The position numbers were made by a program, and so were the translations under genes. This document shows positions 1,763 through 34,685 of a DNA stretch of 64,000 bases, piece by piece; positions within the stretch are counted from its first letter, which is position 1, and every line of letters begins with the position of its first letter. The notes under the pieces were generated by a model. That model was not told where the DNA came from. It did no database searches and saw nothing but the letters and a program-made list of their open reading frames with translations. This DNA comes from Acidimicrobiales bacterium (GTDB lineage Bacteria; Actinomycetota; Acidimicrobiia; Acidimicrobiales; Aldehydirespiratoraceae): contig OZ244029.1 in NCBI GenBank assembly GCA_965214945.1, positions 872,533 through 936,532 of the forward strand, in the 5' to 3' direction.

Positions 1763-1923
1763 AGCCTGCTGACGGTGGGCCGTGCCGAGACCAACTCTCG
1801 TTCAAGAAGAGGCCGTTCGGTTGCCAGCTAGTCCAGCAGCCCAGCGCTGAGGTGTAGCTCAGCCTCGGCATCGGACCCAGAAAGAAGGCAGTTGTGCGCA
1901 GGGTCACACCTTGCCTGGTTCGG

Positions 1924-2805
1924 TCATGACATGATCTGGAATCGGCGGACGAGGTCCAGGTTGAGTTCGAGTCCGAGCCTTGGTGAGGAACTCGATCATG
2001 GTGATCTGCCTGCTGGCGGTCTGCATGTGGATGTTGTAGAAGTCCGAGATGGCCGAGGCGTAGATATAGGCAATCAGCAGAGCCCCGGCTAACTCGCACA
2101 TCACCGATATCTGGGTGATCTCGGTGAAGCCGCCGGCTCGGCTGATGTCGCAGTGCTGCAACAGCACCTTGGCGTTGTCGAGTCATTCCTTGGTCTCCCA
2201 GTGGCCGGTCGAGATTTCGCCTGTGTCGATGAGCAGCGGGCCGCCAGCTGGCGGTACCCCTCCATATCGTCGTGGCGCAGCGGGACCCTCGGCGAAGTAC
2301 ACCCGGTGGTCGTCCAGGTGGTTGGGGACCCACAGCGCCTACTGCCAGTGGGCCCAGCGATATCCGGGGTCGGTGCTGAGCACGATGTCGTCGCCGATCA
2401 TGGCCCGAGCCGGCCGACAAAGTCGACCACCTGGTGGTCGGCCATCTCGGTGAGCCCGACGATCGCCTCCATCTTTGCGAGGATGGCGTCGGTCGGCTCA
2501 CCTCTAGTGTCGCCGGGATACAGGGTCACATAGGGGTGGGCGCCGCTCTGGCGGGCGCCTCCCAGCAGCTGCCAAACCGGTCTCCAAGTTGCTTGCCGTC
2601 AGGTCGTACAAGGTGATGTCGACCGCGTACAGGGCGTTGATTAGCAGTCCTCTGTGGCCGTGGTAGAAGCTCGAGTGATAGATGATGTCGTAGATGCCCA
2701 GCATGTCTATCGGGTCCTTGCCGATGACGTGCCCTGGGTCGCTGTGCGGAGCTAGCGCAATCCCGACGGTTCGGAGTTCAGCGTGTGGGAGTGCTGGGTA
2801 GCCAT
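1924..2805 (-). pseudogene. Enolase-superfamily (mandelate racemase/dehydratase-like) pseudogene, repeat copy A
   Basis: The minus-strand translation gives family-typical blocks spread over several frames: INALYAVDITLYDLTGKQLG, then QLLGGARQSGAHPYVTLYPG in a shifted frame, IDTGEISTGHWETKE followed by a TGA, LLQHCDISRAGGFTEITQI, and the C-terminal LGLELNLDLVRRFQIMS-stop. Multiple frameshifts and in-frame stops. Confidence 0.7.
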
Positions 2806-3015
2806 CTCGACCGACCGCTGTACCTGGCGCTGTTTGCGCGCTGGGATCCGGGCATGATCGTGCGCCGACACAGCCACTACAGCCCGCACGTGTTGATAGT
2901 GCTTTTGGGCGAGTTCACCTGCTGCGATGTCCTCTGCGGGCCAGGCACCCACCTCGAACTGTCTTTCGGGGCGGACTTCGGGCCGTTCGCGGCCGGACCC
3001 GACGGAGTGGAGTTC
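1945..3015. repeat. Direct repeat copy A (enolase pseudogene + cupin segment), left flank of the DISARM operon
   Basis: By-eye alignment to 17406-18181. Shared runs include tccaggttgagttcgagtccgagccttggtg, gcatgtggatgttgtagaagtccgaga, gtacacccggtggtcgtccaggtggttggg, gtgctgagcacgatgtcgtcgccgatcatggccc and gctgtttgcgcgctgggatcc. Each copy has private deletions. Confidence 0.8.
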
Positions 3016-3099
3016 TACGAGGTGATGATGGGCGATCCCCGATCCTGGAGCGACTCGCCCGAATCTATGGCCCGGGTCCTGGTCGAGCAGGGCGTCTAG
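2785..3099 (+). CDS. Cupin-domain protein (possibly N-terminally truncated)
   Basis: Cupin-like core ALFARWDPGMIVRRHSHYSPHVLIVLLGEFTCCDVLCGPGTHLELSFG. The annotated start overlaps the divergent enolase pseudogene start by about 20 nt, which suggests an old junction. Confidence 0.5.
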   Translation: MGVLGSHLDRPLYLALFARWDPGMIVRRHSHYSPHVLIVLLGEFTCCDVLCGPGTHLELSFGADFGPFAAGPDGVEFYEVMMGDPRSWSDSPESMARVLVEQGV

Positions 3100-3341
3100 C
3101 AGTTGCCCGACCCGCCGGTCCAGCTGCCCGCTGGCCTGGCCGACCTGCGCCGCCGTCTTCACCGCCGGCAAACGACAGGACACGGGGGCCTGACCAACCC
3201 CGACACATCCGAATCGATCCCCGAGGGGGACGTGACATCCAACGGGCGGAGCATGGCTGCTCATGGGGAATACCGGTGCGTTCCCGTCCTTCGGACGATC
3301 GTTCCTACACTCATTCTCGTGCTGACCCTGCGCATAGAGCG

Positions 3342-6300
3342 ATGAGCGTTGTCGAGGTGCGGGCACCAATGCCCGAGCTGCCTGATCCTGGGCAGGTGGT
3401 TGAGGTCCGGGGCTCGACTTGGGCTGTCGCCGACGTTCGTCCGCAGGGGCTGCCGCGTAGTCCGGCCGATGAGGCCACTGCGCAGCTCTCGCACGTGGTC
3501 GATCTCCAGTCGCTCGATGAGGACCGCTTCAATGAGATGTTGAGCGTCGTGTGGGAGCTGGAAGTTGGCCATACCGTCACTCCGGCTCAGGGTCTTCCGG
3601 AGCGAATATCGCCGGAGGCCTTCGATGATCCGGACACGCTTGCGGGGTTCATCGACGCGATGCGGTGGGGCGCCGTCACTTCTGCGGACCCGAACCGCTA
3701 CCAGGCGCCCTTCTGGTCGGGCGTGAACATCGAGGCGTATCAGATGGAACCGCTCCGTCGTGCGCTCAGTGCGCCGCGGACGAACCTGCTCTTGGCCGAC
3801 GACGTGGGCCTTGGCAAGACGATCGAAGCCGGACTCGTCATCCAGGAGCTATTGCTTCGCCACCGAGCCCGAACCGCAATAGTCGTGTGCCCTCCGAGTC
3901 TTCGGCTGAAGTGGCAAGACGAGATGCGGGAGAAGTTCGGCCTCGAGTTCGTCATCGTCGACAGCAGCCTGATGGCGCAGGTGCGCCGAACGCACGGTCT
4001 GCACGCCAACCCGTTCCTGATGTACCCCAGGGTCATCGTGTCTATGGCGTGGCTGCCGAAGATTCGAGCTCAGCGGCTCCTACGCGACCTGTTCTCACAG
4101 GCGGGCAATCCGAAGACGGGCAAGCGATTCGCGTTCGACATTCTCGTCGTGGACGAAGCCCACCACGTGGCACCTTCGAGTCCTTCAGCGGGCGCAGGTG
4201 GTCGTGGGTACGCAGTCGACACGCAGCGAACAGTTGCGGTCCGTCACCTCGCCGACAGATGCGAACACCGGCTGTTCCTGTCAGCCACTCCGCACAACGG
4301 CCATCCAGAATCGTTCACGGCCCTCATGGAGATGATAGATCCTCGGCGATTCTCACGGGGTGCACTGCTGGACAGCAACGCGCTGAAGGACGTGGCAGTC
4401 CGCCGGCTCAAGCGGGAACTCACCGGCAAGGGATTCAGGAGGCGATCTGTCGAGTCGCTCACGTTCACTCCCGCCGACGATGAGCAGGAGAAATTCACCA
4501 TTCTCGACGCGATCGTTTCGAAGAGCGCGAAGCTGAACGGGAGCAAGCCTGGTGGTGACATCGTGACGATGCTCCTCAAGAAGCGGTTCCTGTCCAGCCC
4601 CTTTGCCTTCGGCCAGACCCTCAGCCACTACCTCAGTTCCCGATTAGGCCGCGGCCTGAGCTACGACGACTACGACGACATCTTCGGTGAAGGCCAAGCC
4701 GACGAGGAGGAAGGGCTTTGGGAACAAGACGAGTCCGAGCGTCTTCACGAATCGAAGACGTCCGATCCTCTTAGCGCCGCCGAGCCCGGGCAGCTCGACT
4801 CGCTGATGGAGTGGGGCTTGAGCTACGAAAGCCGCCCGGACTCACGGCTCGAGGCTCTGCGCTCGTTCTTGAACGAGGTCTGCCGTCCCGATGGTCAGCA
4901 CTGGTCGCAAGAGCGGGTCGTGGTGTTCACCGAATACGCGCACACGGTCGACTGGCTGACGAGAGTGCTAATTCAGCAGGGATACGGTGACGTCATCGCC
5001 GTCATCCAGGGCTCGACCCCGCCGGAGGACCGCGAGTACATCCGCGCACAATTCACGGCGGACCCTTCGAAGGAGCCGGTGAGGGTGCTCCTGGCGACCG
5101 ACGCAGCTGGCGAAGGGATCGATCTGCAGGCTCATTGCCACCGGCTGGTCAACTTCGACATCCCGTTCAATCCCTCCCGGCTAGAGCAGAGGATCGGTCG
5201 CATCGACCGGTACGGGCAGACTCGTGATCCGCAGGTGTTCCATTTCGTGCCCACTTCGGATTCCTCCCTCTACGCAGCAGCCGCTGATTTCATGGCCCGA
5301 ATCGCAAGGAAGGTCGCCAACGTCGAAGCTGACCTTGGCTCGGTCAATCCGGTGATCGGCGGGGAGATCCACGAGCACTTCGCAGGGCGGACCCCGTCGA
5401 TACGCAAGGCGAGAGCCGTTGACGCCAATGAGGTGATCAACGCTGCGCTTGCAGGTGGCATCGAACTCAACGCACGACTGACCCAACTCGAACAGGGCTT
5501 TGACGAGTCGCGGACCGAAATGCATCTCGAACCCGGCAATCTGCGGCGCGTTGTCGACACTGCCTTGCGGATCGATCGCCAACCCCCGCTCATCTCCATC
5601 CCATACGATGAAGGCGATCCACAGGGTGTACGTGCCGACGAGTTTGCCGTGCGTCTCCTTCCTGACCGGGGTGAACAACCAGGGCCGCTAGCGTTTGCCG
5701 CGTACGAGGTCCCACAGGTATCTCGCCCCTGGCATGCCACCTTGAAGGGCCTGTACACGCGGCTCGCGCCGAACATAGCGCGTCCGATCACCTTCGACCA
5801 GGCTGTAGCAGAAGGTCGAGACGATCTGGTCTACGTCCACCTCGGCCACCCGCTGGTCCAGAAGGCGCAGAGGCTGCTGCGTAGCGCCCTGTGGAGCACA
5901 TCCTCGCCTCTGAACCGCGTGACAGCAGTCGTCGTAGACGATCTGCCGGAATCATTCGTCGCGGCAGTGACCCGAATGGTTCTCGTCGGTCGTGGTGGAG
6001 TCCGCCTGCATGAGGAGGTCTTCCTCGCAGGTGTACGTCTCCGAGGACGTCGAGCCATGGCCGAGGAGAAAGCCGAGGCCGCCCTCGACCAAGCGCTGGA
6101 CGCATCGCGCCTGACGTTCGCGGAGGACTCCGTGCGCTCACAGCTCTGCGTGCTTTGGAACACGCCCGACGCGCCCCTGCGAATCCGCCTTGAGGAATCG
6201 ATGCGAGCACGAGCCGCACGCCGACACGAGACAGTGATGGAGCAGCTCGCGCGTCGTAAAGCGGCCGATGCCCAACGGGCTCACGAGATCTATGCGGCAT

Positions 6301-6563
6301 TTCGAGCCAATCTGCGAGAGTCGCTCGACGCGCTCCGTAAAGCCGAGGAAGAGGAGGCGGCCAAGCTCTTCACCGATGACCAGCAGCACCAGCGACGGCG
6401 CGACATCGATGCGATGGGGCGACGGCTTGAGGAAATAGACGACGAAGAGGCCCGTGAGATCGAGGCGATCAGTGAGCGATACGCAGAGGTTAAGCCCCAT
6501 ACCACCGCTGCCGCAGTTGTCTTCGCGCTCACTCGTGCCGACGCTGCCGGATGGGGGAACTAA
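3342..6563 (+). CDS. drmD: SNF2-family helicase, DISARM class 1 DrmD
   Basis: SF2/SNF2 motifs: LLLADDVGLGKTIEAG (I), DILVVDEAHHVAP (II), LFLSATPHNGHPESF (III), VLLATDAAGEGIDLQ (V), FNPSRLEQRIGRIDRYGQT (VI). Start placed at ATG 3342 (MSVVEVRAP); the ORF track opens at 3276. First gene of the coupled five-gene operon. Confidence 0.8.
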   Translation: MSVVEVRAPMPELPDPGQVVEVRGSTWAVADVRPQGLPRSPADEATAQLSHVVDLQSLDEDRFNEMLSVVWELEVGHTVTPAQGLPERISPEAFDDPDTLAGFIDAMRWGAVTSADPNRYQAPFWSGVNIEAYQMEPLRRALSAPRTNLLLADDVGLGKTIEAGLVIQELLLRHRARTAIVVCPPSLRLKWQDEMREKFGLEFVIVDSSLMAQVRRTHGLHANPFLMYPRVIVSMAWLPKIRAQRLLRDLFSQAGNPKTGKRFAFDILVVDEAHHVAPSSPSAGAGGRGYAVDTQRTVAVRHLADRCEHRLFLSATPHNGHPESFTALMEMIDPRRFSRGALLDSNALKDVAVRRLKRELTGKGFRRRSVESLTFTPADDEQEKFTILDAIVSKSAKLNGSKPGGDIVTMLLKKRFLSSPFAFGQTLSHYLSSRLGRGLSYDDYDDIFGEGQADEEEGLWEQDESERLHESKTSDPLSAAEPGQLDSLMEWGLSYESRPDSRLEALRSFLNEVCRPDGQHWSQERVVVFTEYAHTVDWLTRVLIQQGYGDVIAVIQGSTPPEDREYIRAQFTADPSKEPVRVLLATDAAGEGIDLQAHCHRLVNFDIPFNPSRLEQRIGRIDRYGQTRDPQVFHFVPTSDSSLYAAAADFMARIARKVANVEADLGSVNPVIGGEIHEHFAGRTPSIRKARAVDANEVINAALAGGIELNARLTQLEQGFDESRTEMHLEPGNLRRVVDTALRIDRQPPLISIPYDEGDPQGVRADEFAVRLLPDRGEQPGPLAFAAYEVPQVSRPWHATLKGLYTRLAPNIARPITFDQAVAEGRDDLVYVHLGHPLVQKAQRLLRSALWSTSSPLNRVTAVVVDDLPESFVAAVTRMVLVGRGGVRLHEEVFLAGVRLRGRRAMAEEKAEAALDQALDASRLTFAEDSVRSQLCVLWNTPDAPLRIRLEESMRARAARRHETVMEQLARRKAADAQRAHEIYAAFRANLRESLDALRKAEEEEAAKLFTDDQQHQRRRDIDAMGRRLEEIDDEEAREIEAISERYAEVKPHTTAAAVVFALTRADAAGWGN

Positions 6564-9500
6564 TGGCTGCTGCTAACCGCCGACGCATCCCTGCCACCAG
6601 CAACGTGTCGGAACTTCATCGACGGTGGCTGGAGCTGGTCGACATCGAAGGTCCTTTTCTGGCCATCCCGCCACTCAAGAGAGTTTGGCCCAACGGGATC
6701 CCCAACTTTCGGTCCACCCACCCAGACCGGTTTGAAGTACTCAACCACGCCCTCAAAGACTTCGAAGCGGCTTGGGAGTCCCTGGACCGAGCTGAGGACA
6801 GCAGTAGCACGCTTGACGCGTACCGAGTGGCACGCGACAAGTGGGTCGAGACCGTATTGCGTGACGTGGTTGGTTGGGCCGAGTCCCTCGAATGGGGGGC
6901 CATTCCGGGCGTCGAGGCGCAGTCGCCGAACCGGGCAGTGACCGTGACTGCGCAAGGAGCCATTGTTGGTGCCGACGGCACGAGAGCGTTGGTACACGTC
7001 ACCGATGCGACGGAGTCGCTCCGCCAAACTCCGAACGATCTGTGGGCTGCGACACCAATAGATCGCCTCGATGCGCTTCTGCGAGAGAACGATGTCGAGA
7101 TCGGCATCGTCACTGACGGTCGATGGTGGGGACTCGTGTACGCCGGTGAGGGCCGCATGACGGCCTCCGGAGTGGTCGACGCGCTGACCTGGGTCGAGGA
7201 ACCCCGCACTCGCGATGCGTTCTTCACCCTCGCCGGGCGCCAGCACATCATCGGCGGAGATCCGACTGAGAGACTCCCGGTGCTGTTTGCCGAGTCCGTC
7301 GCCGCTGCCGAGGAGATTACCGAGGCGCTTGGTTCCCAGGTCCGCCGCGCGGTCGAGTTGCTCATCCAGTCGTTCTCCGAATCGGCCTCAGAAGCTCGTC
7401 GACTCGGCAAACCAGATCCGTTACCAGATCGAACCCACGACACCTACGAGGCTGCGGTCACCGTGATGATGCGCGTGGTTTTCCTCCTCTTCGCTGAGGA
7501 GCGAGGTCTACTTCCCTCAGGCGAGCTGTTCGAACAGGGTTACGGCATCTCCAGAGAGCTAGACCGGCTCGACGCCGAGAGCACGCCCGGCGAGGAAGTG
7601 CTCGAAGCAACATCCCTGACCTGGCACCGGTTGCTAGCCACCAGCGGCGCGCTGTACAAGGGTGCGTCCCTTGAGAACCTGCGCATGCCCGCCTATGGAG
7701 GATCACTCTTTGACCCTGACCGGTTTGCCTTCCTCACCGCAATCACGGACGAAGGCACACTCGCCGTGGTGGTGTCAGATCGGGTGATGCTCCACGTCCT
7801 CCGGTCCGTCCAAGTGGCGACCGTGAGAGGCGAAGCTCGCCGTATCTCCTTTCGCGACATCGATGTCGAGCAGATCGGCTACATCTACGAAGGCCTCCTC
7901 GGATACACTTGCAAATCGGTTGATGAGACATATCTGGGCATTCTCGGAACGATGGGCGAGGAGCCTGAAATCCCGCTCGGGACCATCGAGCAGCTCGCTA
8001 GGGAGAACACGACGCCAGAGAAGCTGGCCGGTGCGATCCGCAAGTGGGTTAAGGAGAATCAGCCTTCAGCAAAGCCTGCAACCGCTGCCAAGATCGCCAA
8101 AGCCCTCCAGGCCGATGCCGACCCGTCAGTGGTCAGTGCGCTAGCCCAGACCGTTGCCGACAACTCAGAGCTTCTCAATCGCATCGCGCCCTGGCTAGGC
8201 CTGATCCGTCGCGATCTGCGAGGCCACCCCTTCGTCTTACGGGGGGGGGGGGGTCTCCTGGTCGCAGAGACCCCGTCACGGAGGAATGCAGGGGCGCATT
8301 ACACCCCGAAGTCGCTGGCTGAAGAGGTCGTTTTCCACACGCTCGAGCCTCTCTGCTACTCGCCTGGTCCGCACCAGACGAGCGACGAAGCGTCATGGCA
8401 GCTCCGGAGTTCTGACGAGCTGCTCAATCTCAAGGTCGCCGACATCGCTTGTGGCTCTGGCGCCTTCCTTGTGGCCGCAACTCGCTACTTGGCAGATCGA
8501 GTTGTCGAAGCCTGGATCAGTGAGGAACCGGCCAACGCTCAGCGGATGGATCTCCATACGCGGGCCAAGCGTCAGGTCGTCGCGAATTGCCTCTATGGAG
8601 CTGACATCAACGACATGGCCGTCGAGATGTGCAAGCTCTCCCTCTGGCTCGTCTCCCTCGATCGCGATCTGCCCTTCTCCTTCGTCGACGACAAAATCTT
8701 CCTAGGCAACTCGCTCTTGGGGCTCACCAGCCTCGATCAGCTTCGGAAGCTTCACATTGATCCGACGCGAGTCCCTATGGACCGCAGGTTCGACATCTTT
8801 GACGTCGATGTCGATGAGATCATTCACAAAGCTGTCAGTCTTCGAGAGCATCTATTGGGCGAGATTGACGACAACGACCCGGCGCGGAGCAGCGCGACTA
8901 AGCGCCGCCAGCATAATGAGTCGAAGAGTGTTACCTCCCCACTCCGCCAGATAGCGGATGGCATCATTGCTGCGGGTCTCCCTCTAGGCGGCAAGCCCGG
9001 TAGGGAACTTGACGCAGCCTATGTAAGCCTCCGGTGCGCCGTTAGGAATGCCTATCCTGATGATGACACTCACAAGGATGCAAGAGAGTTGGAGGCTCTG
9101 ATTGTGAGAGGTCTTACTCCGGCTGTCAAGACCGACTTCAAGCGATGGCAACCGCTCCATTGGCCAATCGAGGCCCCCGACGTGATCGTTGATCGCAGTG
9201 GCTTCGATGCAATTATCGGCAATCCTCCATTCCTGGGGGGCCAGAAACTCAGCGGGGCAATGGGCAGTGAGATCAGGGACTGGTTCGTTCACGTGCTGGC
9301 GAATGGAAAACGAGGTAGCGCCGACTTAGTTGCCTACTTCTTCCTTCGGATACTTGGTCTTCTCGCAGACAATGGCACCATTGGGCTAATCGCGACCAAC
9401 ACCATTGCTCAGGGGGTCACGAGGCAAGTTGGCCTTGACCAGATTGTGGATCAGGGATTGACCATCATGCGTTCGATCCAGAGCAGGCCATGGCCGGCAA

Positions 9501-10636: not shown

Positions 10637-13600
10637 CTGATGCGTCTGCTTCGGTGGGTTCTCAGACCAGTTACGACTTGCGATTCGAGTTAGACGGTTC
10701 GTCCTTCGCTGTGCGAGAGAATCTTGTCGACATCCTGGAACGCGAGCTGCTAGGGCCGATTCACGGATCAGAGGAGGTGCTTCCTATCAGCCCTCGGTCC
10801 CAATACCTGGTTGGTCACGTTGCTCCGGTGAAGCTCACCTCCGACGCAGCCAGTGAGGCGGTTGATTCTGGCTCAGAGGATCGCGGCGAGCTGATCGAGG
10901 TTCGTCTGGACACAACCGCGTTGGCCGAAGTTCCCGGTGTGCCAGCGTTTGCAGCTGATGACCAGAAAGCCGAGACCGAGGACGATGATGCCGAGGACCG
11001 CGCACCGAAGCAAGGCCTCATGATCCCGGCGTCGATGGGAATGCGCTTCCAGGTTCCCGCCGATTTGGAGTCGTTCACGGTATCGGCCTCATGGGGAACG
11101 TACGAGACCATTGAGACGGATCAGGTGACCAAGTCGGGACGTCCTGTTCGCCATTACAAGCGGATCCCGGTGGAGGAAGCGAGGTTAATTAGGTTGGCGG
11201 ATCTGGTTGCTGGCAGAACGAAGATCGTGGAGCTTCAGGATTCTGTTTGCCTTCGCCTTGACCGTTATGACGACAAGATACACGATCGGGTGCTAGTCGA
11301 GATCGCCCTGTGCAACGATCGCGAGACCCCGGACTCCATCCCGATAAGCATGTGGATGTTTCAGACCAAGCTCCGGGTAGACGCTGGCGGGGCGGAAGTG
11401 TTTTTGCCGGTGCGTGACGTGCTCGAACAGGACTGGCCAGAGCCCGACGACGAGGTGCAACAGCTCGACCTCCAATATCGAGACCGTCTGGAGTATGCGG
11501 TTGGGCGCACCTGCTCCGTGGACTGGGAGGTGCGCCAAGGATCGCGGCGGGCGACCGAAGTGTCGACGACCTGGCTCCCGATAGCTGAGACACCGCAGAC
11601 GCGGGCTCCGGACCGTGACAGGTCCATGTTGTCGATGGACGAGCTCGCCACCGTCACGCCGGCCAAGTTGCGCACCGGCCTAAGACCGCTGGTGGACGGC
11701 TATTGTGAATGGCTCGATCAACAGGAATCGAGAGCTAAGAAGCTGCCCGAGCACTGGCACGAGACCTGTGAGCAGGTCCTTTTGGAAGCTCGTCAGGCTC
11801 ACCAACGTCTTGCCGACGGGTTGGAGCACGTTGCGACCGAGCCCGAAGCGCTGCGTTGCTTCCGATTCATGAACCGGGTGATGCGTGACCAACGGATCGC
11901 TTCGCAAGTTGCCGAAGAGCGAGCGTCGGACTCATCGGTCACGATCGAGCAGGCCAGGCAAAGGGTGGACGCGCTGAGTGCCGGCGTGGCTTCGTGGCGC
12001 CCTTTCCAGTTGGCCTTCATTCTCATGCAACTCGAAGCGCTCACCGAGCCCACGACCGCCATCCGCAGCGCAGAGCATCAGGCCCGAGTCGAGTTGCTGT
12101 TCTTTCCGACGGGAGGCGGCAAAACCGAGGCCTACCTGGGTCTCGCTGCCTATGCCTTCGCGACCCGCCGCCGGCAGGGAGTTGTCGAGTCGGCCGAGGG
12201 ACCGCTGGACGGAGGCCTTGGTGTTGCGGTGCTGATGCGCTACACGCTGCGGCTGCTGACTGCGCAGCAGTTTCAGCGGGCAACGGCGCTTGTGTGCGCA
12301 GCAGAGCTAGCTCGCCGCGAGGACGAAGCGACCTGGGGCACAGAGCCATTCCGCATCGGTCTGTGGGTCGGGACCGATGTGAGCCCTAAGTGGTTCGAGG
12401 AAGCAGACAAGCAGCTCACCAGGGCCAACGAGTACGGCTCGCATCGCTTGACTGTCCTGCAGATTCAGCGCTGCCCGTGGTGCGGAACCCCGATCGCGGC
12501 AGCCCAGATCAAGGCCGACGCCACGCAGCGGCGGGTGTTCGTGTACTGCGGAGACGAGCTCGCCCGATGCCCGTTCGCCAAGGGCGGGGCCGTCGACGAG
12601 GGCCTGCCGGTGCTCACTGTCGACGAGGAGATATACCGTCTCGCTCCCGCGTTCGTCATCGCGACGGTGGACAAGTTCGCCCGCTTGGCCCGCGAGGGTG
12701 CAGCAGCGTCCCTGTTCGGCTATGTCGCCCGCCGCTGCGGTCGCCACGGCTACGTCCATCAGGACTATGCTGGGTGCAGCATCAGCAGAGCGCACCCGGC
12801 GGTCAAGGACGGTGATCGCATCGTCCATCCGCAGGCCACTGTGCGGCCTGTGGGGCGACTGCGGCCGCCGGACCTCATCATCCAGGACGAGCTGCACCTC
12901 ATCACCGGTGCGCTCGGCACGTCAGTCGGCCTGTTCGAGGTCGCGGTCGAGACTCTCGCCTCGTGGGAGACCGCCGACGGCAAGCCTGTGCGACCGATGA
13001 TCGTCGCCTCGACGGCAACGGTGCGCAATGCCCACGAGCAGGTGCGAGGCCTCTATGGGCGCCAAGTCCAGATCTTCCCGCCCCAGGTGCTCGATGCTGC
13101 CGACACCTACTTCTCCCAAGAGGTGCCGATCGACCGCGCCAACCCTGGGCGCCGCTATCTGGGCGTCAGCGCTCAAGGAGTCCGCCTTTCGAGCGCCGAG
13201 ATCCGCGTGGCCGAGGTCTTGCTCTCCGCGGGGCAACTGCTCTTCGACGAAGCCGGCGAGGCAGCCGACCCGTACATGACGCTGGTCGGGTACTTCAACG
13301 CAACCCGGGAGCTGGCGGGCATGGCCCGCTACATGGCTGATGACGTCGCCAACCGAGTCGGCAACCCGCGTATGGGCTCCGGCTTTCCCCGCAGGTACGG
13401 CACCGGCTTTGGAAGTTTGTCCATCGCGGAGCTCACCTCACGCATCGCTTCCGCCGAGATCGGCCGCACCCTCGACCGACTCGGGCTCGAGTTCGATCCC
13501 GACTTCGACGCTACCCAGCAACGCCTGGACCGCATCAAAGCCGCAAACGCCGGCAAGAAGCGGCCCATCCGCACGAACATCCCCTTCGACGTGGTGCTGG

Positions 13601-14367
13601 CAACCTCGATGCTCGGGGTCGGCGTCGACGTCCAGCGGCTCGGCCTCATGCTGGTGGTCGGCCAGCCGAAGAACACCGCCGAGTACATCCAGGCGTCCTC
13701 CCGCGTGGGACGCGAAGCATCCGGTCGCCCCGGCCTTGTGGTGGCGCTGGGCAACTGGGCGCGGCCGCGAGACCTTGCGCACTTCGAGCAGTTCCGGCAC
13801 TACCACGAGACGTTCTACGCCCAGGTCGAGGCTCAGTCGGTCACACCGTTCTCGACGACCTCGCTCGATCGGGGCCTTGATGGCCTGCTCGTGAGCGTCG
13901 CTCGCGTGGTGCAAGCGACCGAGGCCAAGGGTCTGTCGCCCGAGCAGGACGCCTGGCGGATCCGCGACCAGCGGGCCTCAATCGACGCCATCTGCGATCG
14001 GCTCAGGAAGCGGATCGCCGTGGCGGCCCGAGACGACGCCGCCTCCAACCATGCCGGCGATGTGCTCGTCAACCGCATCGATCGATGGAACGAGCGCGCC
14101 AAGCGAGCAACGGAGATGAACAAGACTCTGGTGTACGAACGGATCGGGCAGGGAGAGGAGTTCCTCCCTCTGATCATCAGCCCCGAGAACGCCAAGGCCA
14201 GCGCCGGCGATTCCCTCCAAGCCCCGTTCGTGATCGCGAACTCCATGCGCGAAGTGCAGCCTGAGATCAATGTGCTCGTCAGCCCCCTAGCGGAGCGGCT
14301 GTTCATGCTGAGGCCTGATGGCGCGCCCGAGTGGACCCTCCCGGTTGGAGAGGACGACGATGACTGA
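10633..14367 (+). CDS. drmA: DExH helicase, DISARM DrmA
   Basis: LLFFPTGGGKTEAYLGL (Walker A), DLIIQDELHLITGALGT (DExH), ATSMLGVGVDVQRLGLMLVVGQPKNTAEYIQASSRVGR (motifs V-VI), and a Zn-ribbon-like CPWCGTPI...YCGDELARCPF. ATGA overlap with the drmMI stop. Confidence 0.8.
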   Translation: MTDASASVGSQTSYDLRFELDGSSFAVRENLVDILERELLGPIHGSEEVLPISPRSQYLVGHVAPVKLTSDAASEAVDSGSEDRGELIEVRLDTTALAEVPGVPAFAADDQKAETEDDDAEDRAPKQGLMIPASMGMRFQVPADLESFTVSASWGTYETIETDQVTKSGRPVRHYKRIPVEEARLIRLADLVAGRTKIVELQDSVCLRLDRYDDKIHDRVLVEIALCNDRETPDSIPISMWMFQTKLRVDAGGAEVFLPVRDVLEQDWPEPDDEVQQLDLQYRDRLEYAVGRTCSVDWEVRQGSRRATEVSTTWLPIAETPQTRAPDRDRSMLSMDELATVTPAKLRTGLRPLVDGYCEWLDQQESRAKKLPEHWHETCEQVLLEARQAHQRLADGLEHVATEPEALRCFRFMNRVMRDQRIASQVAEERASDSSVTIEQARQRVDALSAGVASWRPFQLAFILMQLEALTEPTTAIRSAEHQARVELLFFPTGGGKTEAYLGLAAYAFATRRRQGVVESAEGPLDGGLGVAVLMRYTLRLLTAQQFQRATALVCAAELARREDEATWGTEPFRIGLWVGTDVSPKWFEEADKQLTRANEYGSHRLTVLQIQRCPWCGTPIAAAQIKADATQRRVFVYCGDELARCPFAKGGAVDEGLPVLTVDEEIYRLAPAFVIATVDKFARLAREGAAASLFGYVARRCGRHGYVHQDYAGCSISRAHPAVKDGDRIVHPQATVRPVGRLRPPDLIIQDELHLITGALGTSVGLFEVAVETLASWETADGKPVRPMIVASTATVRNAHEQVRGLYGRQVQIFPPQVLDAADTYFSQEVPIDRANPGRRYLGVSAQGVRLSSAEIRVAEVLLSAGQLLFDEAGEAADPYMTLVGYFNATRELAGMARYMADDVANRVGNPRMGSGFPRRYGTGFGSLSIAELTSRIASAEIGRTLDRLGLEFDPDFDATQQRLDRIKAANAGKKRPIRTNIPFDVVLATSMLGVGVDVQRLGLMLVVGQPKNTAEYIQASSRVGREASGRPGLVVALGNWARPRDLAHFEQFRHYHETFYAQVEAQSVTPFSTTSLDRGLDGLLVSVARVVQATEAKGLSPEQDAWRIRDQRASIDAICDRLRKRIAVAARDDAASNHAGDVLVNRIDRWNERAKRATEMNKTLVYERIGQGEEFLPLIISPENAKASAGDSLQAPFVIANSMREVQPEINVLVSPLAERLFMLRPDGAPEWTLPVGEDDDD

Positions 14368-16429
14368 CCCGCTCACCGGTCCAGAAGCTCCGAGCATGAT
14401 GCTGCATGATCCAGGTCAGACGCTCGACCCGCTGGCGGACGCCGAAGACGCGGCAGTCAAGAATCGGGCCAAGGTCGGTTCAGCTCGGCCTTCCTCGCTC
14501 CTCTACACCTACGGGCCGGGCGCCATCATGGATCTTCCGGGCTTCTCGGTCATGCCCGCCGGGCTTGGCGACTGGGAGCCCATCTGGCAGCGACGAGAGT
14601 CGGTCCCCACGATCACCGAGCCCCGTCTGCTCGACGTGGTGCGACTCCACCTGGGACCGCAGGTAGACGCTCTGCGCCCTTTCCCGTGGCAGCCGAAGAC
14701 GAGCCCCTCGTCTTCTGACGGCAGTGATCTCGGGATACCAGCCCGTGTCTTTCCCCAGTGGCTGCGGTGCACCGGCTGTGACTACCTCGGCCCGATTTCA
14801 CGCTTTCGCTACACCAACACCCACCCATTCCGTCCCGACCTGGCCCAGTTCACCCACGCCCCCTGCCCCGGCCGCGGCGGACAACGCCGCACCTCGAGCC
14901 GGAAGGAGCGCGGGAGGCCGGCGGTTCCGGCCCAACACCTGCTGACCTGCGTCAACGGCCATCTCGACGAGTTCCCCTACGACCTCTGGGTCCACCAAGG
15001 CGACAGATGCCCGAAAGTCGAAGTGCCGAGCCTGAAGATGCGCGACGCCAATGTCGGCGGCTCCAATGTCGGCTCCACCATCATCTGCGAAGCCTGCAGA
15101 GCGAGGCGGGGAATGGCGGAGGCACAAGGACGGGCAGGCCGCGAGAAGCTCCCGCAGAAGTGCCGCGGGCGCCACCCTCACCTGAACGCCTTCGACGGCT
15201 CCTGCGATGCGCAGCCGGCGCTGATCATGATGGGTGCGTCGAACCTCTGGTTCCCTTCGATCCAGTCGATCATCGTTATGCCCCGGACTGAGGCCGAAGG
15301 GCAGTCCGCCCTCGCTGACAGCTTGCGGCTCCAACTGGACGTTGAGCAGATTCGCCGATCTGGCCAGGATCTTGACTGCATCGTGGCGCTTGCCAGGGCT
15401 ATGCGGGGCCTTGACACGGCTGACATCACCGACCAGGAGCTCAAGGAGGCGATTTCGGAAGTACTGGCACCGGCAGACACCGAGGAGGATCGACAGGAGA
15501 AGCTGGCGGCCTGGGATCCCATCGAACTGCTCGTGCCGGAGTGGGACTACCTGCAGAAGCCGGCCCTGTTCCCGCAGCAGGAGAACACCAGCGGCCTGAT
15601 GGTCACCGAGGAGCAGCGCCACGCAGACCTCGACACCCGCATCACACGGGTGGTCGCCGTCAACCAGATGAAGAAGGTCAACGCCGTCCTCGGTTTCACG
15701 AGGCTCGACGAGATGGACCGGGTCAATGATCTGGCGAGCCGCCTGGTCAAGCTGACCCGCGACGCCCGACCGACCTGGGTACCGGCGACCGAAGACCGCG
15801 GCGAGGGTGTCTTCCTGCAGCTCGACCCCGAGAAGGTCGCTGCCTGGGAGGAGAAGATTCTCGTCTCGGACTTGTGGGACGCCCATCGCAAGGCACACCG
15901 GCGCAATTTTCAGCGGCGATTCTCCGAGACCGCGAAGCTCGTCGACCCCGACGTGCGCCTGGCCGCGCCGCGGTATTGGCTGCTGCACACCCTCGCTCAC
16001 GTGCTGATCCGCGAGATGGCCATGTCGTGCGGCTACGGCGCTGCGAGCCTCACCGAGCGCATCTATGGTTGGGCTTCATCGCCGCAGCGAGACGCGGCGG
16101 CAGGCCTCCTGATCTGCACGACCGCTTCGGACAGCGAAGGGACCCTTGGCGGTCTGGTCGCCCTGTCTGAGCCTTCTAGGCTGCAGGGGCTCATCAGATC
16201 GGCACTGCGGCGAGCCGGCAGATGCTCGTCTGATCCGGTCTGTGCCATGCGCACTCCGAGCGACCCCGAGGACTTTCTGCACGGAGCGGCTTGTCACTGC
16301 TGTGCGTTCGCATCGGAGACCTCGTGCGAGAGGGCCAACCGGTTCCTCGACCGCCGCCTGCTGCTGACCCTCCCATCCGCCGATGGCGCCACCGTGCCGG
16401 GCTTCTTCGGGACGGTCGATGCCATCTGA
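14360..16429 (+). CDS. drmB: DUF1998-domain protein, DISARM DrmB
   Basis: C-terminal DUF1998-type motif HGAACHCCAFASETSCERANRFLDRRLL, plus Cys clusters CTGCDY and CPGRGG...CVNGH. The ATG at 14360 overlaps the drmA stop (14365-14367); the ORF track opens at 14318. Confidence 0.75.
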   Translation: MTDPLTGPEAPSMMLHDPGQTLDPLADAEDAAVKNRAKVGSARPSSLLYTYGPGAIMDLPGFSVMPAGLGDWEPIWQRRESVPTITEPRLLDVVRLHLGPQVDALRPFPWQPKTSPSSSDGSDLGIPARVFPQWLRCTGCDYLGPISRFRYTNTHPFRPDLAQFTHAPCPGRGGQRRTSSRKERGRPAVPAQHLLTCVNGHLDEFPYDLWVHQGDRCPKVEVPSLKMRDANVGGSNVGSTIICEACRARRGMAEAQGRAGREKLPQKCRGRHPHLNAFDGSCDAQPALIMMGASNLWFPSIQSIIVMPRTEAEGQSALADSLRLQLDVEQIRRSGQDLDCIVALARAMRGLDTADITDQELKEAISEVLAPADTEEDRQEKLAAWDPIELLVPEWDYLQKPALFPQQENTSGLMVTEEQRHADLDTRITRVVAVNQMKKVNAVLGFTRLDEMDRVNDLASRLVKLTRDARPTWVPATEDRGEGVFLQLDPEKVAAWEEKILVSDLWDAHRKAHRRNFQRRFSETAKLVDPDVRLAAPRYWLLHTLAHVLIREMAMSCGYGAASLTERIYGWASSPQRDAAAGLLICTTASDSEGTLGGLVALSEPSRLQGLIRSALRRAGRCSSDPVCAMRTPSDPEDFLHGAACHCCAFASETSCERANRFLDRRLLLTLPSADGATVPGFFGTVDAI

Positions 16430-17122
16430 TCCGTTCGCTGATCTGGGGACCTTCCTCACCGCAACCGAGGCAGTCGGGATCGCAGTCCAGCTCTCCACCG
16501 GTCAGCACTCATCAGTCGCTCTCCGGGAGGTGAATCCAGCCCGTCGCGAGAAAGCCAAGGAACTGATGAGCACCGCCGGACTCGGACACGATGACGTCGA
16601 CCGATCCTCAGCCGTCCTTCATGCGATCGCGAGAGCCAAGAGTCTCGGGAGTCAGTTGACACCGGTGTGGATGATGCCCGGGAACGAGGCAACAGCCGGC
16701 CGTCTCACCGGTGAGTTCACCGGCTCATCCAAGCAGCTAGCCAGTCGGTGACGTGCGCGACTTATAACTTCGAGCCCACGTCGCAGATGTGGACAGCGCT
16801 TCGGGAAGCGGCCGATCAGCCTGGGATCGTCGTCGCCGTCTACCTCGACGCCGACAAAGCGGACGCTGGGAAAGTCAAGAGCCAGCTTGGCCGCGCATCC
16901 GTATACCAATCCGCCGTCTTGCCTGATGGCAACCAGGTAGTCAGCCACGCCAAGTTCGTCGTCATCGACCATGAGATCGTCCTCGTCACGAGCGCGAACT
17001 TCTCATTCAGCGCCGAGAACCGCAACGTCGAGTTCGGCTTGCTCGTCCAAGATGCCGGACTTGCTCGTTCAGTTGAAATGACGATGGAGTCGAAGCAGGG
17101 CACCCTCTACGAATCAGCGTAG
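16419..17122 (+). pseudogene. drmC: PLD-family nuclease DrmC, split by one frame change
   Basis: HxK(x)4D motif in SHAKFVVIDHEIVLVTSANFS. The N-terminal half reads in the frame of ATG 16419 and stops at 16749-16751. The C-terminal half reads in another frame that is open from 16715 (VHRLIQAASQSVTCATYNFEPTS). The switch lies between 16715 and 16748, near the short repeat tcaccgg-tgagt-tcaccgg. The start overlaps the drmB stop by 11 nt. Confidence 0.7.
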
Positions 17123-17244
17123 AGAGCTTGGGGGTCCGGGAGGCTGTCAACAAGGAGAGCTGTCGGTCCAGGCGATCGTCTCCGAGGCGTCGCATGTGGC
17201 CTCCACACCCGACGGGTGGCGACGCTGAAGCCGAGGAGCGGCAC

Positions 17245-17360
17245 CAACTCGCCGCCGCAGTGGGTGGAGGTCGCGCAATGCAGAAGGTGGATCCCGGGAG
17301 GATCGTGCCGGTAGGCCTCGTCGGTATGAGGCACTACCGGTATGAGGCACCACCGGCTCG
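17245..17360 (-). pseudogene. Remnant of a TauD/gamma-butyrobetaine hydroxylase-type Fe(II)/2OG dioxygenase
   Basis: The minus-strand translation PHTDEAYRHDPPGIHLLHCATSTHCGGEL matches the HxD facial-triad block of that family. Only about 35 codons are recognisable. Confidence 0.4.
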
Positions 17361-17405
17361 GTGTCGGTCAAGGCATCACCGGGTCGGGCCACACGTCAGC
17401 TGGCT

Positions 17406-18181
17406 GCGGAGGAGATCCAGGTTGAGTTCGAGTCCGAGCCTTGGTGCGGTTGGGGGTGTGATCCAGCCATCGATGATCTCGGGCATAGCAAGGTGGATGA
17501 GGTCGCGTCGCAGGATCTAGGTGACCGCTTCGATGGTGCGGAACTCGATGCTGGGGATCTGCATGCTGGTGATCCGCATGTGGATGTTGTAGAAGTCCGA
17601 GACGGCCGAGGCGTAGTTGTGGGGCATCAGCCCATATCGCCGTGGCGCAGCGGGGCCTGGCGAAGTACACCCGGTGGTCGTCCAGGTGGTTGGGAACCCA
17701 CAGCGCCTCCTGTCAGTGGGCCCAGCGGTATCCGGGGTCGGTGCTGAGCACGATGTCGTCGCCGATCATGGCCCGGAGCCGGCCGACAAGGTCGACTAAC
17801 TGGTGGTCGGGTGTTTGGTGAGCTCGACGATCGCTCCCATCTTGTCGAGGATGGCGTCGTCGGCTCACCTATAGTTTCGCCGGGATACAGGGTCACATAG
17901 GGGCGTGCGCCGCTCTGGCGGGCGCCTCCGGTTCGGTGTCCAGCGTGTGGGAGCAGTGGGCGGTCTTCTCGACCGACCCGCTGTACCGGGCGCTGTTTGC
18001 GCGCTGGGATCCCGGCATGATCGTGCGACGGCACGGCCACTACAGCCCGCACGTGCTGATAGTGCTTTCGGGCGATTTCACCTGCGGCGACGTCCTCTGC
18101 GGGCCAGGCACCCACCTTGAACTGTCTTTCGGGGCGGACTTCGGGCCGTTCGTGGCCGGATCCGACGGGTCGGTGGAATCG
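17406..18181. repeat. Direct repeat copy B (degenerate enolase + cupin remnants), right flank of the DISARM operon
   Basis: Same orientation as copy A. It lacks about 210 nt that copy A has (around 2560-2770). It retains about 90 nt that A has lost but copy C (34.5 kb) has. The cupin remnant reads ALFARWDPGMIVRRHGHYSPHVLIVLSGDFTCGDVLCGPGTHLELSFG. Confidence 0.8.
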
Positions 18182-18476: not shown

Positions 18477-19526
18477 TTGATGGCTCCGACTGATCGACGC
18501 ATTATGCGTATTCCCATCCCCGTCCCCTTGATCAGGCAGATGGACGCTGTGATCCTGGGCGGTCTCGGCGGCTACACGACCCGTGCTGAGTTCATCGTCG
18601 ATGCCATCCAGGAGCGGATCCTCGAACTGTCGGTCGGGGTGGTTGAGGACGCTGGAGTTCCGCCGGACCCGCTTCTGGCGCCCGATACCACGACCCCGAA
18701 CATGACCGAGACAACCCTGCCTCCTCGGGCTACGCCCACACTTGCGGCGACCGTTCTCGAAGCGCCGTTGTCGGGTGCCACTGTGGATTGCGACTCGGAT
18801 CTGAGCCGCCCGGAGGGACGGCCCATCTTTGGGCTGCACAACCGCGACTACCCGTCGCTGTGGGCTCTCGCTGAACTTGCGAAGAGCACGGTGAACGGAG
18901 CCATCCCTGCCGAGACCTTCTACAACGAGACGCTCCGCAAGGCGTGGACCTTCGGAGAGGTGCTCCTCGCGGTTAAGAAGCACACAGGGATCAAGTGCAC
19001 CGTCTTGTTTCCCACGAATCCGGCTAAGCGAAAGGCTGCCGAGAACCGGTTTCGCTCCTCCGCCATCGGGACCCTTCGCACTGTTGGTGGCACCTGGACC
19101 ACTAGAGGACCGCTTTTTGAATGGCGGCTCGCCGGGCTGATCGAAGGCGACGAGTCTGGTCCGCTCATCGGCGTGACTCCTGGCGGGTGGAACATTCTCC
19201 AAGCGGTAAACGGGATCTCGGTCGAGGAACCCCACCCCGAGAACATGAGAGCCAAGTTCTTCGCTCACCTAGCCGAGTACGCCCCCGCTGATGAGCGGGG
19301 CTTCAGAGAGATCGTGGCTGCAATCGGACCAGATGGTGCCACCCGCCGAGATGTCCACGATCACTTAACGACGGCTTGGCCCGACTGGAACGGTAGCGAG
19401 GTTGCCACGAATTCCTCTGGCTATATCGCCCGAGCACGTGAATGGGGTCTCGTTAAACCGAAGCAGACCAAAAGCCATTACCACCTGACCGCACTCGGAC
19501 ACCAATACGCAAACGGAGGAAAGTGA
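18477..19526 (+). CDS. Ribbon-helix-helix (CopG/MetJ-like) DNA-binding protein with a large uncharacterised C-terminal region
   Basis: The N-terminus RIMRIPIPVPLIRQMDAVILGGLGGYTTRAEFIVDAIQERILEL fits the RHH pattern (beta strand, then two helices). The C-terminal end resembles a winged helix (SSGYIARAREWGLVKPKQTKSHYHLTALG). Its stop overlaps the next start (GTGATGA). Confidence 0.55.
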   Translation: MMAPTDRRIMRIPIPVPLIRQMDAVILGGLGGYTTRAEFIVDAIQERILELSVGVVEDAGVPPDPLLAPDTTTPNMTETTLPPRATPTLAATVLEAPLSGATVDCDSDLSRPEGRPIFGLHNRDYPSLWALAELAKSTVNGAIPAETFYNETLRKAWTFGEVLLAVKKHTGIKCTVLFPTNPAKRKAAENRFRSSAIGTLRTVGGTWTTRGPLFEWRLAGLIEGDESGPLIGVTPGGWNILQAVNGISVEEPHPENMRAKFFAHLAEYAPADERGFREIVAAIGPDGATRRDVHDHLTTAWPDWNGSEVATNSSGYIARAREWGLVKPKQTKSHYHLTALGHQYANGGK

Positions 19527-34634: not shown

Positions 34635-34685
34635 TCGAGGACAATGCTGAGAAGGCGCAAAAGCTGATGGCGAAAGCTGACAGAA

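What the first reader, a model, noticed from the sequence alone, without database searches (positions are those of the whole stretch)
1908..18181. DISARM operon is bracketed by degenerate direct repeats of a decayed enolase + cupin segment
Segments 1945-3015 and 17406-18181 are same-orientation copies of one ancestral stretch. That stretch holds a minus-strand enolase-superfamily gene, now riddled with stops and frameshifts, plus a plus-strand cupin gene. Each copy has private deletions: about 210 nt missing in B, about 90 nt missing in A. They are therefore old duplicates rather than an assembly duplication. Together they flank the whole DISARM cassette (3342-17122). Direct repeats of this size could let the cassette be lost or swapped by homologous recombination. 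They also suggest that cassettes were installed by recombination through this gene rather than by a site-specific integrase, since none is visible.
Basis: seen in the sequence. Interest (0 to 1): 0.6.

Follow-up and report, generated by a model that had tools for sequence, protein, structure and literature searches.

The report
Decayed gene-fusion scars flanking DISARM
The anti-phage DISARM operon is flanked by two old, decaying copies of a dead fusion of two unrelated gene fragments, which looks like a scar of duplicative DNA rearrangement in a defence-gene hotspot rather than a functional element or a recombination "landing pad".

Summary
Segments about 1885-3005 (A) and 17368-18168 (B) are collinear same-strand copies, 86-93% identical, each with private deletions. 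They bracket a class 1 DISARM operon (drmD, drmMI, drmA, drmB, frameshifted drmC).

The repeated unit is not a decayed natural gene pair. It is a chimeric joint. An enolase-superfamily gene lacking its first ~71 codons is fused head-to-head, at a GTG microhomology (2729-2731), to a cupin-like gene lacking its first 22 codons.

- In 80 related Acidimicrobiia genomes the two genes are never neighbours.
- In the nearest relative they lie 70 kb apart and convergent, around a defence island that starts with a drmD scar beside the intact cupin-like gene.
- A-B differences are spread evenly over codon positions, and both copies share a 48-nt deletion, so one dead joint was duplicated long ago (~11% neutral divergence).
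- A third enolase remnant (34422-34719) sits beside ThuA. A sister strain carries a different remnant there, so this is probably the native locus.

Most likely the joints are novel-joint scars of tandem duplication, or of circularisation and re-integration, of a cupin→DISARM←enolase unit. This origin is inferred, not shown. Recombination between the copies is possible but weak (longest identical tract 47 nt). Modest interest.

The parts
1924..2731 (-). Enolase-superfamily pseudogene fragment, copy A. It covers about codon 72 to the stop codon at 1924-1926. It has several private frameshifts, two in-frame stops, a 7-nt deletion and an 84-nt deletion. It also has a 48-nt in-frame deletion shared with copy B.
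   Evidence: Reconstruction hits Pfam MR_MLE_C at 1e-14. tblastn with P0002 covers aa 72-388.
2729..2731 (.). Novel joint of copy A. Enolase homology (reverse strand) ends at 2731 and cupin-like homology starts at 2729. The shared GTG lies inside an imperfect 9-nt microhomology. The joint links enolase nt ~213 to cupin nt 67.
   Evidence: Ungapped comparison with the L001/L002 enolase genes and the L003/L004 cupin-like genes.
2729..3192 (+). Cupin-like pseudogene fragment, copy A, covering codon 23 to the natural stop. It has a frameshift near 2815, a nonsense codon at 3097-3099 and a +1 frameshift near 3130. The source annotation calls a 104-aa ORF here (P0121).
   Evidence: tblastn with P0122, blastn to L003, homologue search.
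3342..17122 (+). Class 1 DISARM operon: drmD 3342-6563, drmMI 6551-10636, drmA 10633-14367, drmB 14318-16429, and drmC 16383-17122. drmC is split by a frameshift into ORFs 16383-16751 and 16748-17122.
   Evidence: PADLOC full-length hits, Pfam domains, drmD start and upstream region conserved with L003, drmC frames.
17368..17929 (-). Enolase pseudogene fragment, copy B. It covers about codons 129-388. It lacks 183 nt that are present in A, shares the 48-nt deletion with A, and has private stops and frameshifts. The stop-codon region is lost through a small deletion.
17929..18168 (+). Cupin-like pseudogene fragment, copy B, covering about codons 34-115. The joint region present in A (2563-2766) is missing. 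The fragment is cut off at 18168, where unrelated AT-rich DNA and the 348/774-aa gene pair begin.
34422..34719 (-). Third enolase remnant (C), covering about codons 329-388 plus a 20-nt tandem insertion. It is convergent with ThuA (33532-34413). This is probably the native enolase locus. A frameshifted cytosine methylase and a Druantia-like block lie to its right.
   Evidence: tblastn, blastn, alignment. Sister-strain contig L087 is 96-99.8% identical up to this point and carries a different enolase remnant there. PADLOC for the neighbours.
18480..21850 (+). Pair of genes of unknown function (348 and 774 aa) that follows copy B. The pair is orthologous (about 76% aa identity) to a pair that lies upstream of the intact cupin-like gene in the relative (L003).
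   Evidence: tblastx; no Pfam or PADLOC hit; sister-strain contig L088.
82..1762 (+). Left neighbour of copy A: the C-terminal part of a PbeC/DndD-like ATPase (82-1290; the window starts inside it) and a 154-aa gene (1298-1762). The junction with the enolase 3' end is shared with a sister strain.
   Evidence: PADLOC; exact look-up of the 154-aa product; contig L090 is 96% identical over 1493-1977.

Best explanation
A and B are two neutrally decaying copies of a single dead chimeric joint. I call the joint J, the enolase-superfamily gene 'eno', and mark a truncated gene with a prime. In J, the 3' three-quarters of eno are fused head-to-head to the 3' seven-eighths of a conserved cupin-like gene. 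The fusion arose by illegitimate recombination at a short microhomology.

Shown:
- the joint and its exact breakpoint;
- the pseudogene state of both halves;
- single origin of A and B followed by about 11% unconstrained divergence;
- the absence of any natural eno-cupin neighbourhood in relatives;
- the ancestral linkage of the cupin-like gene to drmD.

Inferred:
- In the ancestor, the cupin-like gene and eno flanked a defence-gene hotspot with their 3' ends facing inward (cupin→ cargo ←eno). The nearest relative has this arrangement. Within this window, so do cupin_A and the enolase remnant beside ThuA.
- In that topology, a joint that links the two outward-facing 5' sides can only arise in two ways. 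One is a tandem duplication or amplification of the unit. The other, which is equivalent, is circularisation of the unit followed by re-integration through homologous recombination.
- J_A-DISARM-J_B would then be one complete repeat unit (cupin'→DISARM←eno') of such an array. Its neighbours were later overwritten by other cargo: a Pbe/Dnd-type system on the left and the 348/774-aa pair on the right.

Today the copies have no coding function. They are weak substrates for RecA-type deletion of DISARM.
For: - Repeat and indels.
- Identity of the two gene fragments.
- Exact joint with GTG microhomology.
- A-B differences by codon position are 21/27/29, uniform (p = 0.51). Functional orthologue pairs give 41/37/159. 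Contingency p = 1.6e-5, Fisher p = 8e-6.
- A and B share a 48-nt deletion that removes the 'FTAVKLPFV' strand. Their frameshifts and stops are otherwise private.
- None of 80 related loci has eno within 10 kb of the cupin-like gene. The eno homologue contexts are unrelated to the cupin-like gene.
- On relative contig ctg149805l, eno is on the + strand at 137.2 kb and the cupin-like gene on the - strand at 208.4 kb, with defence genes at both inner edges.
- The relative keeps an 83%-identical drmD 5' scar just downstream of its intact cupin-like gene.
- In a third genome (L004), the 3' flank of the cupin-like gene also carries defence genes: LmuB-like and DndD/C/A.
- The third eno remnant beside ThuA has the same orientation and, with cupin_A, the same convergent topology. 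It sits at a locus that is 96-99.8% conserved in a sister strain.
- The relative contig itself carries a 98-99% identical direct repeat of at least 8.9 kb, spaced 58.9 kb, inside this island.
- No tRNA, Rfam family or recombinase domain was found in the window ORFs tested.
Against: - The ancestral convergent arrangement rests on one relative contig (a metagenome assembly) plus the internal topology of this window.
- Two joints require at least three original units, or two events.
- The flanking units no longer resemble DISARM at all. A/B homology stops 40-60 nt past the eno stop on the left and inside the cupin-like gene on the right. So several later replacements must be assumed.
- B lacks the joint itself (a 204-nt gap spans it), so identity of the two breakpoints is inferred, not seen.
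- On short segments, the eno in A/B is about as far from the native-locus remnants (80-82%) as from orthologues in other genomes (77-80%). It may therefore have arrived with foreign DNA rather than by local duplication.
- The left side of the locus lies outside the window, and the source chromosome could not be fetched.
Confidence: 0.5

Rival explanations
1. Campbell-type installation. The chromosome already carried one copy of the joint. A circular DNA carrying the same joint plus DISARM, from a sister strain, integrated by a single homologous crossover within the joint. That produced joint-DISARM-joint.
For: - Same-orientation repeats flank exactly one cassette.
- No integrase is visible.
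- A sister strain shares the left junction and the right-hand 348/774 cassette. No protein at least 90% identical to DrmA or to the cupin_A ORF from any other sample is in the protein collection.
Against: - The cupin→drmD adjacency is ancestral and is also present as a scar in a more distant relative. DISARM is therefore old at this position, not a newcomer.
- About 11% neutral A-B divergence means the event, if it happened, is ancient.
- The sister-strain assemblies are fragmentary (2-6x coverage), so absence of DISARM there is not evidence.
- This model still needs a prior duplicative or circular event to create the joint.
Confidence: 0.2
2. Simple deletion followed by segmental duplication. 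In the direct ancestor, eno and the cupin-like gene were divergent neighbours. A deletion removed both 5' ends and created the joint. A later local duplication copied the joint to the other side of DISARM.
For: - Microhomology-mediated joints also arise by deletion.
- The neighbourhood of the cupin-like gene is highly variable between genomes, so an unseen arrangement is conceivable.
Against: - None of 80 related loci has eno within 10 kb.
- The nearest relative and the outermost copies in this window both show the convergent topology, not the divergent one.
- This model gives no mechanism for copying a 1-kb piece 15 kb away in direct orientation.
Confidence: 0.12
3. Site-specific tandem accretion. 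An integrase encoded outside the window targets the 3' end of eno. Each incoming island carries a copy of the target's 3' part, leaving eno 3' fragments (A, B, C) as attachment-site scars between successive islands.
For: - There are three same-orientation eno 3' ends. Each abuts different DNA at almost the same point, 12-60 nt past the stop codon.
- Content turns over quickly at the ThuA-eno locus between near-identical strains.
- In the relative, a defence island starts right after the eno stop.
Against: - The repeats are far longer than usual attachment sites (up to about 950 nt of eno) and include the cupin-like fragment.
- The fragment lengths run the wrong way for accretion at an intact gene: the shortest is at the native locus and the longest is the most distal.
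- No recombinase, tRNA or conserved short core was found.
- Uniform decay and the shared internal 48-nt deletion fit duplication of a dead copy.
Confidence: 0.08
4. Assembly artefact. The two copies come from two co-assembled strains joined wrongly in a long-read metagenome-assembled chromosome.
For: The source is a single-contig metagenome-assembled genome of 3,150,762 bp. The related metagenome contig also shows an odd 98-99% repeat.
Against: - The copies are only 89% identical, with different indels and different flanks on all four sides.
- A sister-strain short-read contig independently confirms the left junction of A.
- Strain chimeras give near-identical repeats, not decayed ones.
Confidence: 0.03

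Closest known systems
Novel joints of tandem duplications and amplifications in bacterial chromosomes (RecA-independent joining at microhomology, then RecA-dependent expansion or collapse). From my own knowledge of the Salmonella and E. coli duplication literature.
   Same: - A downstream point is fused to an upstream point at a few bases of microhomology.
- Direct repeats bracket one complete unit.
- The joint creates truncated, fused gene fragments.
   Different: - Classical duplications are unstable and the copies are near-identical. Here the joints have persisted to about 11% neutral divergence.
- The neighbouring units now carry different cargo.
- The duplication itself is inferred from topology, not observed.
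Defence-system hotspots flanked by conserved core genes, such as the P. aeruginosa core defence hotspots (PMC10250203) and the E. coli hotspot catalogue (PMC10121019).
   Same: - A fixed chromosomal position is bounded by recognisable genes (the cupin-like gene and eno).
- Its cargo differs between close relatives: DISARM here, a drmD scar with other systems in L003, and Lamassu-like plus Dnd in L004.
- Content turns over quickly between strains that are 97-99.8% identical.
   Different: - In E. coli most hotspot cargo sits on recognisable mobile elements (abstract of PMC10121019). No mobility gene was seen here.
- The boundary genes themselves have been truncated, fused and duplicated.
- The cupin-like gene has no conserved neighbourhood across the class, so it is not an ordinary core-gene anchor.
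Campbell-type integration of a circular DNA by a single homologous crossover. From my own knowledge.
   Same: The product is homology-insert-homology with direct repeats, as seen around DISARM.
   Different: The homology here is itself a circle-type or duplication-type joint. DISARM is ancestrally linked to one arm. No circular form or donor is known.
Class 1 DISARM (drmD, drmMI, drmA, drmB, drmC; Ofir et al. 2018). From my own knowledge.
   Same: Gene set and order match, with full-length PADLOC profile hits.
   Different: drmC is split by a frameshift. This could be a real pseudogene or a long-read sequencing error. The DISARM system is the cargo, not the subject of the finding.

Membership tests
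Enolase superfamily (MR/MLE type), the minus-strand remnant | Match to the C-terminal barrel domain (Pfam MR_MLE_C) above the curated cut-off, and to the N-terminal capping domain | tested here: met
   The reconstructed A/B protein scores 55.1 bits on MR_MLE_C against a cut-off of 29.4. MR_MLE_N is sub-threshold because the N-terminus is missing. The intact homologue P0002 hits both domains.
Enolase superfamily (MR/MLE type), the minus-strand remnant | An intact open reading frame, as a functional member needs | tested here: not met
   Copies A and B carry 5' truncations, stops, frameshifts and deletions, and copy C is a 5'-truncated stub with a 20-nt tandem insertion. All three are pseudogene fragments.
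Cupin superfamily (ChrR-like Cupin_7), the plus-strand remnant | Pfam Cupin_7 match above the gathering score | tested here: inconclusive
   Intact homologues score 15-25 bits against a cut-off of 27, with E from 2e-5 to 0.02. A few database homologues carry a precomputed PF12973 hit. A 41%-identical plasmid gene is annotated as a cupin domain protein. No structure prediction was run.
Class 1 DISARM | Presence and order of drmD (SNF2), drmMI (N6-adenine methylase), drmA (helicase), drmB (DUF1998/MZB) and drmC (PLD) | tested here: met
   PADLOC scores: DrmD 1267 bits, DrmMI 1612 bits, DrmA 997 bits, DrmB 231 bits, and DrmC in two pieces. Pfam domains agree. Activity was not tested. drmC is frameshifted.
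Attachment-site repeats of an integrase-borne genomic island | A recombinase gene in or next to the island, and short identical core repeats at both ends, often at a tRNA or a gene's 3' end | tested here: not met
   No tRNA or tmRNA and no Rfam family. No recombinase domain in the ORFs scanned. The repeats are about 1 kb, 89% identical and interrupted by indels. The part of the island to the left of the window could not be examined.
Tandem-duplication or amplification novel joint | The joint links the distal end of a segment to its proximal end, with microhomology at the breakpoint | tested here: inconclusive
   Microhomology at the joint was observed. The head-to-tail nature depends on the ancestral convergent order. 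That order is seen in one relative contig and in the outer copies of this window. Duplicated cargo is no longer present.
Tandem-duplication or amplification novel joint | Copies derive from one event and diverge without selection afterwards | tested here: met
   Differences are uniform over codon positions (p = 0.51) and differ from functional orthologue pairs (p = 1.6e-5). The two copies share a 48-nt deletion.

The most novel reading that the evidence does not exclude
The joints are footprints of an integrase-free way of stacking defence cassettes. Units bounded by the cupin-like gene and the enolase gene are cut out as circles, which creates the eno'|cupin' joint. They are then re-inserted by homologous recombination into the same hotspot of related cells. 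This would build arrays (Pbe | joint | DISARM | joint | 348/774 pair) in which each joint acts as a portable homology arm, a recombination-driven counterpart of an integron.
Probability: 0.1. Interest if true: 0.65.

Novelty: new member of a known kind. Interest (0 to 1): 0.3.

Why it matters
How defence islands are assembled where no mobile-element genes are visible is still poorly understood, especially in uncultured Actinomycetota such as these Acidimicrobiia.

This locus gives a dated, base-resolved record of non-integrase rearrangement in a defence hotspot. The record has four parts:
- a microhomology joint;
- its duplication;
- its neutral decay;
- different cargo in adjacent slots and in sister strains.

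It also has a practical use. The public annotation calls hypothetical proteins on these remnants, and these should be treated as pseudogene debris.

It does not reveal a new kind of element or a new defence mechanism.

Tried and rejected
- Pfam on the mechanical ORFs of the repeats gave nothing. The real frames only appeared after frame-following reconstruction.
- Attempts to reach the source chromosome beyond the window failed. Exact-protein look-ups of P0121, the 175-aa ORF and E1-beta were not on record.
It did not return that protein, only homologues at 53% identity or less.
- The metagenome scan with the enolase gave only two short contigs with no useful flanks.
- Looking for sister-strain contigs across the joints, through spurious ORFs of the repeats, found only singletons.
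- Plasmid searches with the joint DNA found nothing.
- Promoter and terminator scans of both copies showed nothing above shuffled expectation, except a promoter-like site upstream of the 348-aa gene.
- I considered independent formation of the joints in A and B, because their breakpoints differ by 204 nt. I rejected it as less likely because of the shared 48-nt deletion and the uniform codon-position divergence.
- I tried to derive the present gene order from one or two tandem duplications of a plausible ancestor. No scheme worked without extra replacement events, so I do not claim a full history.


Full report
In this report, 'eno' means the enolase-superfamily gene, 'cupin' means the cupin-like gene, a prime marks a truncated copy, and J means the eno'|cupin' joint.

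OBSERVATION

The repeat is real. The repeat finder and blastn give a collinear, same-strand series of blocks between about 1945-3005 (A) and 17406-18168 (B), at 86-93% identity and with E-values down to 1e-114. Weak homology runs another 40-60 nt to the left, to about 1885 / 17368.

Each copy has private deletions.
- B lacks A's 2079-2261 (183 nt) and 2563-2766 (204 nt).
- A lacks B's 17450-17533 (84 nt), which is flanked by an 8-nt direct repeat.

Between the copies lies a class 1 DISARM operon. PADLOC gives full-length hits for DrmD, DrmMI, DrmA and DrmB. DrmC is split into two ORFs by a frameshift.

WHAT THE REPEATED UNIT IS

Mechanical ORFs gave no Pfam hit, because the coding frame keeps switching.

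Enolase part:
- Following the frames on the minus strand gives a protein that hits Pfam MR_MLE_C above threshold.
- It is 68% identical to intact 388/389-aa enolase-superfamily proteins.

Cupin-like part:
- The plus-strand part is 83% identical to an intact 176-aa protein. That protein belongs to a family that is very widespread in Acidimicrobiia.
- Pfam Cupin_7 hits to the family are only sub-threshold.
- A distant plasmid homologue is annotated as a cupin domain protein.

Coverage and damage:
- A covers eno codons ~72-388 and cupin codons 23-176.
- B covers eno ~129-388, with gaps, and cupin ~34-115.
- Both halves of both copies are dead.
  - All are truncated at the 5' end and carry frameshifts and stops.
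  - cupin_A has a nonsense codon at 3097-3099.
  - cupin_B is also truncated at its 3' end.

The joint in A can be read to the base. Reverse-strand eno homology ends at 2731 and cupin homology begins at 2729. The two share GTG inside an imperfect 9-nt microhomology. So the unit is a head-to-head fusion of two 5'-truncated genes made by illegitimate recombination. It is not a decayed natural gene pair.

IS THERE AN INTACT PAIR ELSEWHERE?

No intact pair was found.
- A genome scan with the intact cupin-like protein returned 80 loci from Acidimicrobiia with 10-kb flanks. None contains an eno homologue.
- The neighbours of the cupin-like gene are not conserved at all.
- The eno homologues sit in ordinary metabolic contexts (L002, L086) or next to defence genes (L001).
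- In the closest relative found (one 222-kb metagenome contig), eno is on the + strand at 137.2 kb and cupin on the - strand at 208.4 kb.
  - The two are convergent, 70 kb apart, with their 3' ends facing a defence island.

Directly downstream of that relative's intact cupin-like gene lies an 83%-identical scar of the same drmD 5' end and its upstream region. The cupin→drmD adjacency is therefore ancestral.

In a third genome (L004), the 3' flank of the cupin-like gene carries Lamassu-like and Dnd genes. The 3' side of this gene is thus a defence hotspot in this clade.

AGE AND ORIGIN OF THE TWO COPIES

- A-B differences fall evenly on codon positions (21/27/29, p = 0.51). Functional orthologue pairs show the usual third-position excess (41/37/159). 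The two patterns differ at p = 1.6e-5.
- A and B share a 48-nt in-frame deletion that removes a conserved barrel strand. All their frameshifts and stops are private.
- So one joint that was already dead was copied, and the copies have since diverged by about 11% without constraint.
- This rules out an assembly duplication. It also makes it unlikely that the two joints formed independently from functional genes.

A THIRD REMNANT AND THE NATIVE LOCUS

tblastn found a third eno fragment at 34422-34719, in the same orientation and convergent with ThuA. It lies at the end of a 12-kb metabolic block.

A sister-strain contig (L087) is 96-99.8% identical across that block. It ends in a different eno remnant followed by unrelated DNA. 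This is therefore probably the native eno locus, and it turns over quickly.

To its right in the window are a frameshifted cytosine methylase, DruF/DruE, a type II restriction-modification system and an NsnB-like ATPase.

cupin_A (+ strand, 2.7 kb) and this native eno remnant (- strand, 34.4 kb) show the same convergent topology as in the relative.

MECHANISM (INFERRED)

If cupin→ cargo ←eno is the ancestral order, a joint linking the two outward 5' sides cannot arise by deletion or inversion. It is what a tandem duplication or amplification of the unit produces, or circularisation followed by re-integration. J_A-DISARM-J_B is then one complete unit.

Weak points of this model:
- Two joints need at least three units or two events.
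- The flanking units now hold unrelated cargo: a PbeC-like system on the left and a conserved 348/774-aa pair on the right.
- B lacks the joint itself.
- On short segments, the A/B eno is as distant from the native remnants as from orthologues elsewhere.
- The region to the left of the window could not be obtained.

I put about 0.5 on this composite explanation. Campbell-type installation, deletion plus segmental duplication, site-specific accretion and assembly artefact are rated lower, for the reasons given under the rival explanations.

RECOMBINATION POTENTIAL

The longest identical A/B tracts are 47, 36, 34 and 31 nt. These are above the minimal length for RecA-type exchange (my own knowledge). 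However, they sit within 89% identity and several indels, so deletion of DISARM through the repeats should be rare. No read-level data were available to test for excision.

A 550-nt sister-strain contig shares the left junction of A at 96% identity. Another shares the 348/774 cassette at 93.6%. Nothing spanning the joints was found.

COMPARISON WITH KNOWN SYSTEMS AND VERDICT

The locus resembles core-gene-flanked defence hotspots (PMC10250203, PMC10121019) and classical duplication joints. It is a well-resolved example of rearrangement scars in a defence hotspot of an uncultured actinobacterium. It is not a new kind of element.

Interest is modest (0.3).

Noticed in passing
window 16383-17122: drmC is split by a frameshift near 16700-16750 into two ORFs that match DrmC profile positions 2-102 and 113-239. 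This is either a real pseudogene or a homopolymer error in a long-read assembly.
   Followed up: partly
window 34686-53120: A second defence block lies to the right of the third enolase remnant. It holds a frameshifted C5 cytosine methylase (34686-35894, minus strand), DruF (36074-39166), DruE (39180-44546), a type II methylase and restriction enzyme (45604-47910), and an NsnB-like ATPase (51303-53120).
   Followed up: partly
window 18480-21850; L003 5785-9158: A conserved pair of genes (348 and 774 aa) has no Pfam or PADLOC match. It lies next to the cupin-like gene in two genomes but on opposite sides of it: after the truncated copy here, before the intact gene in the relative. It may be an undescribed defence pair. 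The junction cupin nt ~349 | 18169 also looks like a duplication-type joint.
   Followed up: partly
L004-L083 (80 loci); P0122 family: The ~175-aa cupin-like family is 65-91% identical across Acidimicrobiia, yet it has no conserved neighbours within 10 kb. In three close genomes its 3' flank carries different defence systems. That is unusual for such a conserved gene.
   Followed up: partly
L001 12524-21167 and L003 11676-20531 (contig ena:ERZ25070786:ctg149805l): The relative's island contains its own 98-99% identical direct repeat of at least 8.9 kb (Eco57I-like methylase plus HKD-SNF2 helicase), spaced 58.9 kb. It is either a recent large duplication or a strain mis-join in the metagenome assembly.
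   Followed up: no
window 17929; L087 ~9077; window 2545-2566: The 5' breakpoints of the enolase remnant in copy B and in the sister strain lie 2 nt apart, at an imperfect palindrome CTGGCGGGCGCCTCCCAG. This may be a recurrent breakage site.
   Followed up: no
window 1713-2420 (minus), 2788-3099 (plus), 17627-18247 (minus): The source genome's public gene calls include 'proteins' of 235, 104 and 206 aa laid over the pseudogene remnants. Two of them are on the wrong strand or frame. They are annotation artefacts.
   Followed up: yes
window 17270-17310: There is a short tandem motif, GGTATGAGGCAC(T/C)ACCGG x2, in the 245-nt spacer between the drmC stop and the 3' end of enolase copy B. Its meaning is unknown.
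   Followed up: no
window 44561-44661 / 50680-50780; 57607-57728 / 59080-59201; 57949-59073 / 62904-64000: There are further diverged repeats in the right half of the window. Two are direct repeats at 80-83% identity. One is a set of inverted arms at 71-76% identity, which suggests paralogous genes of unknown family in opposite orientation.
   Followed up: no
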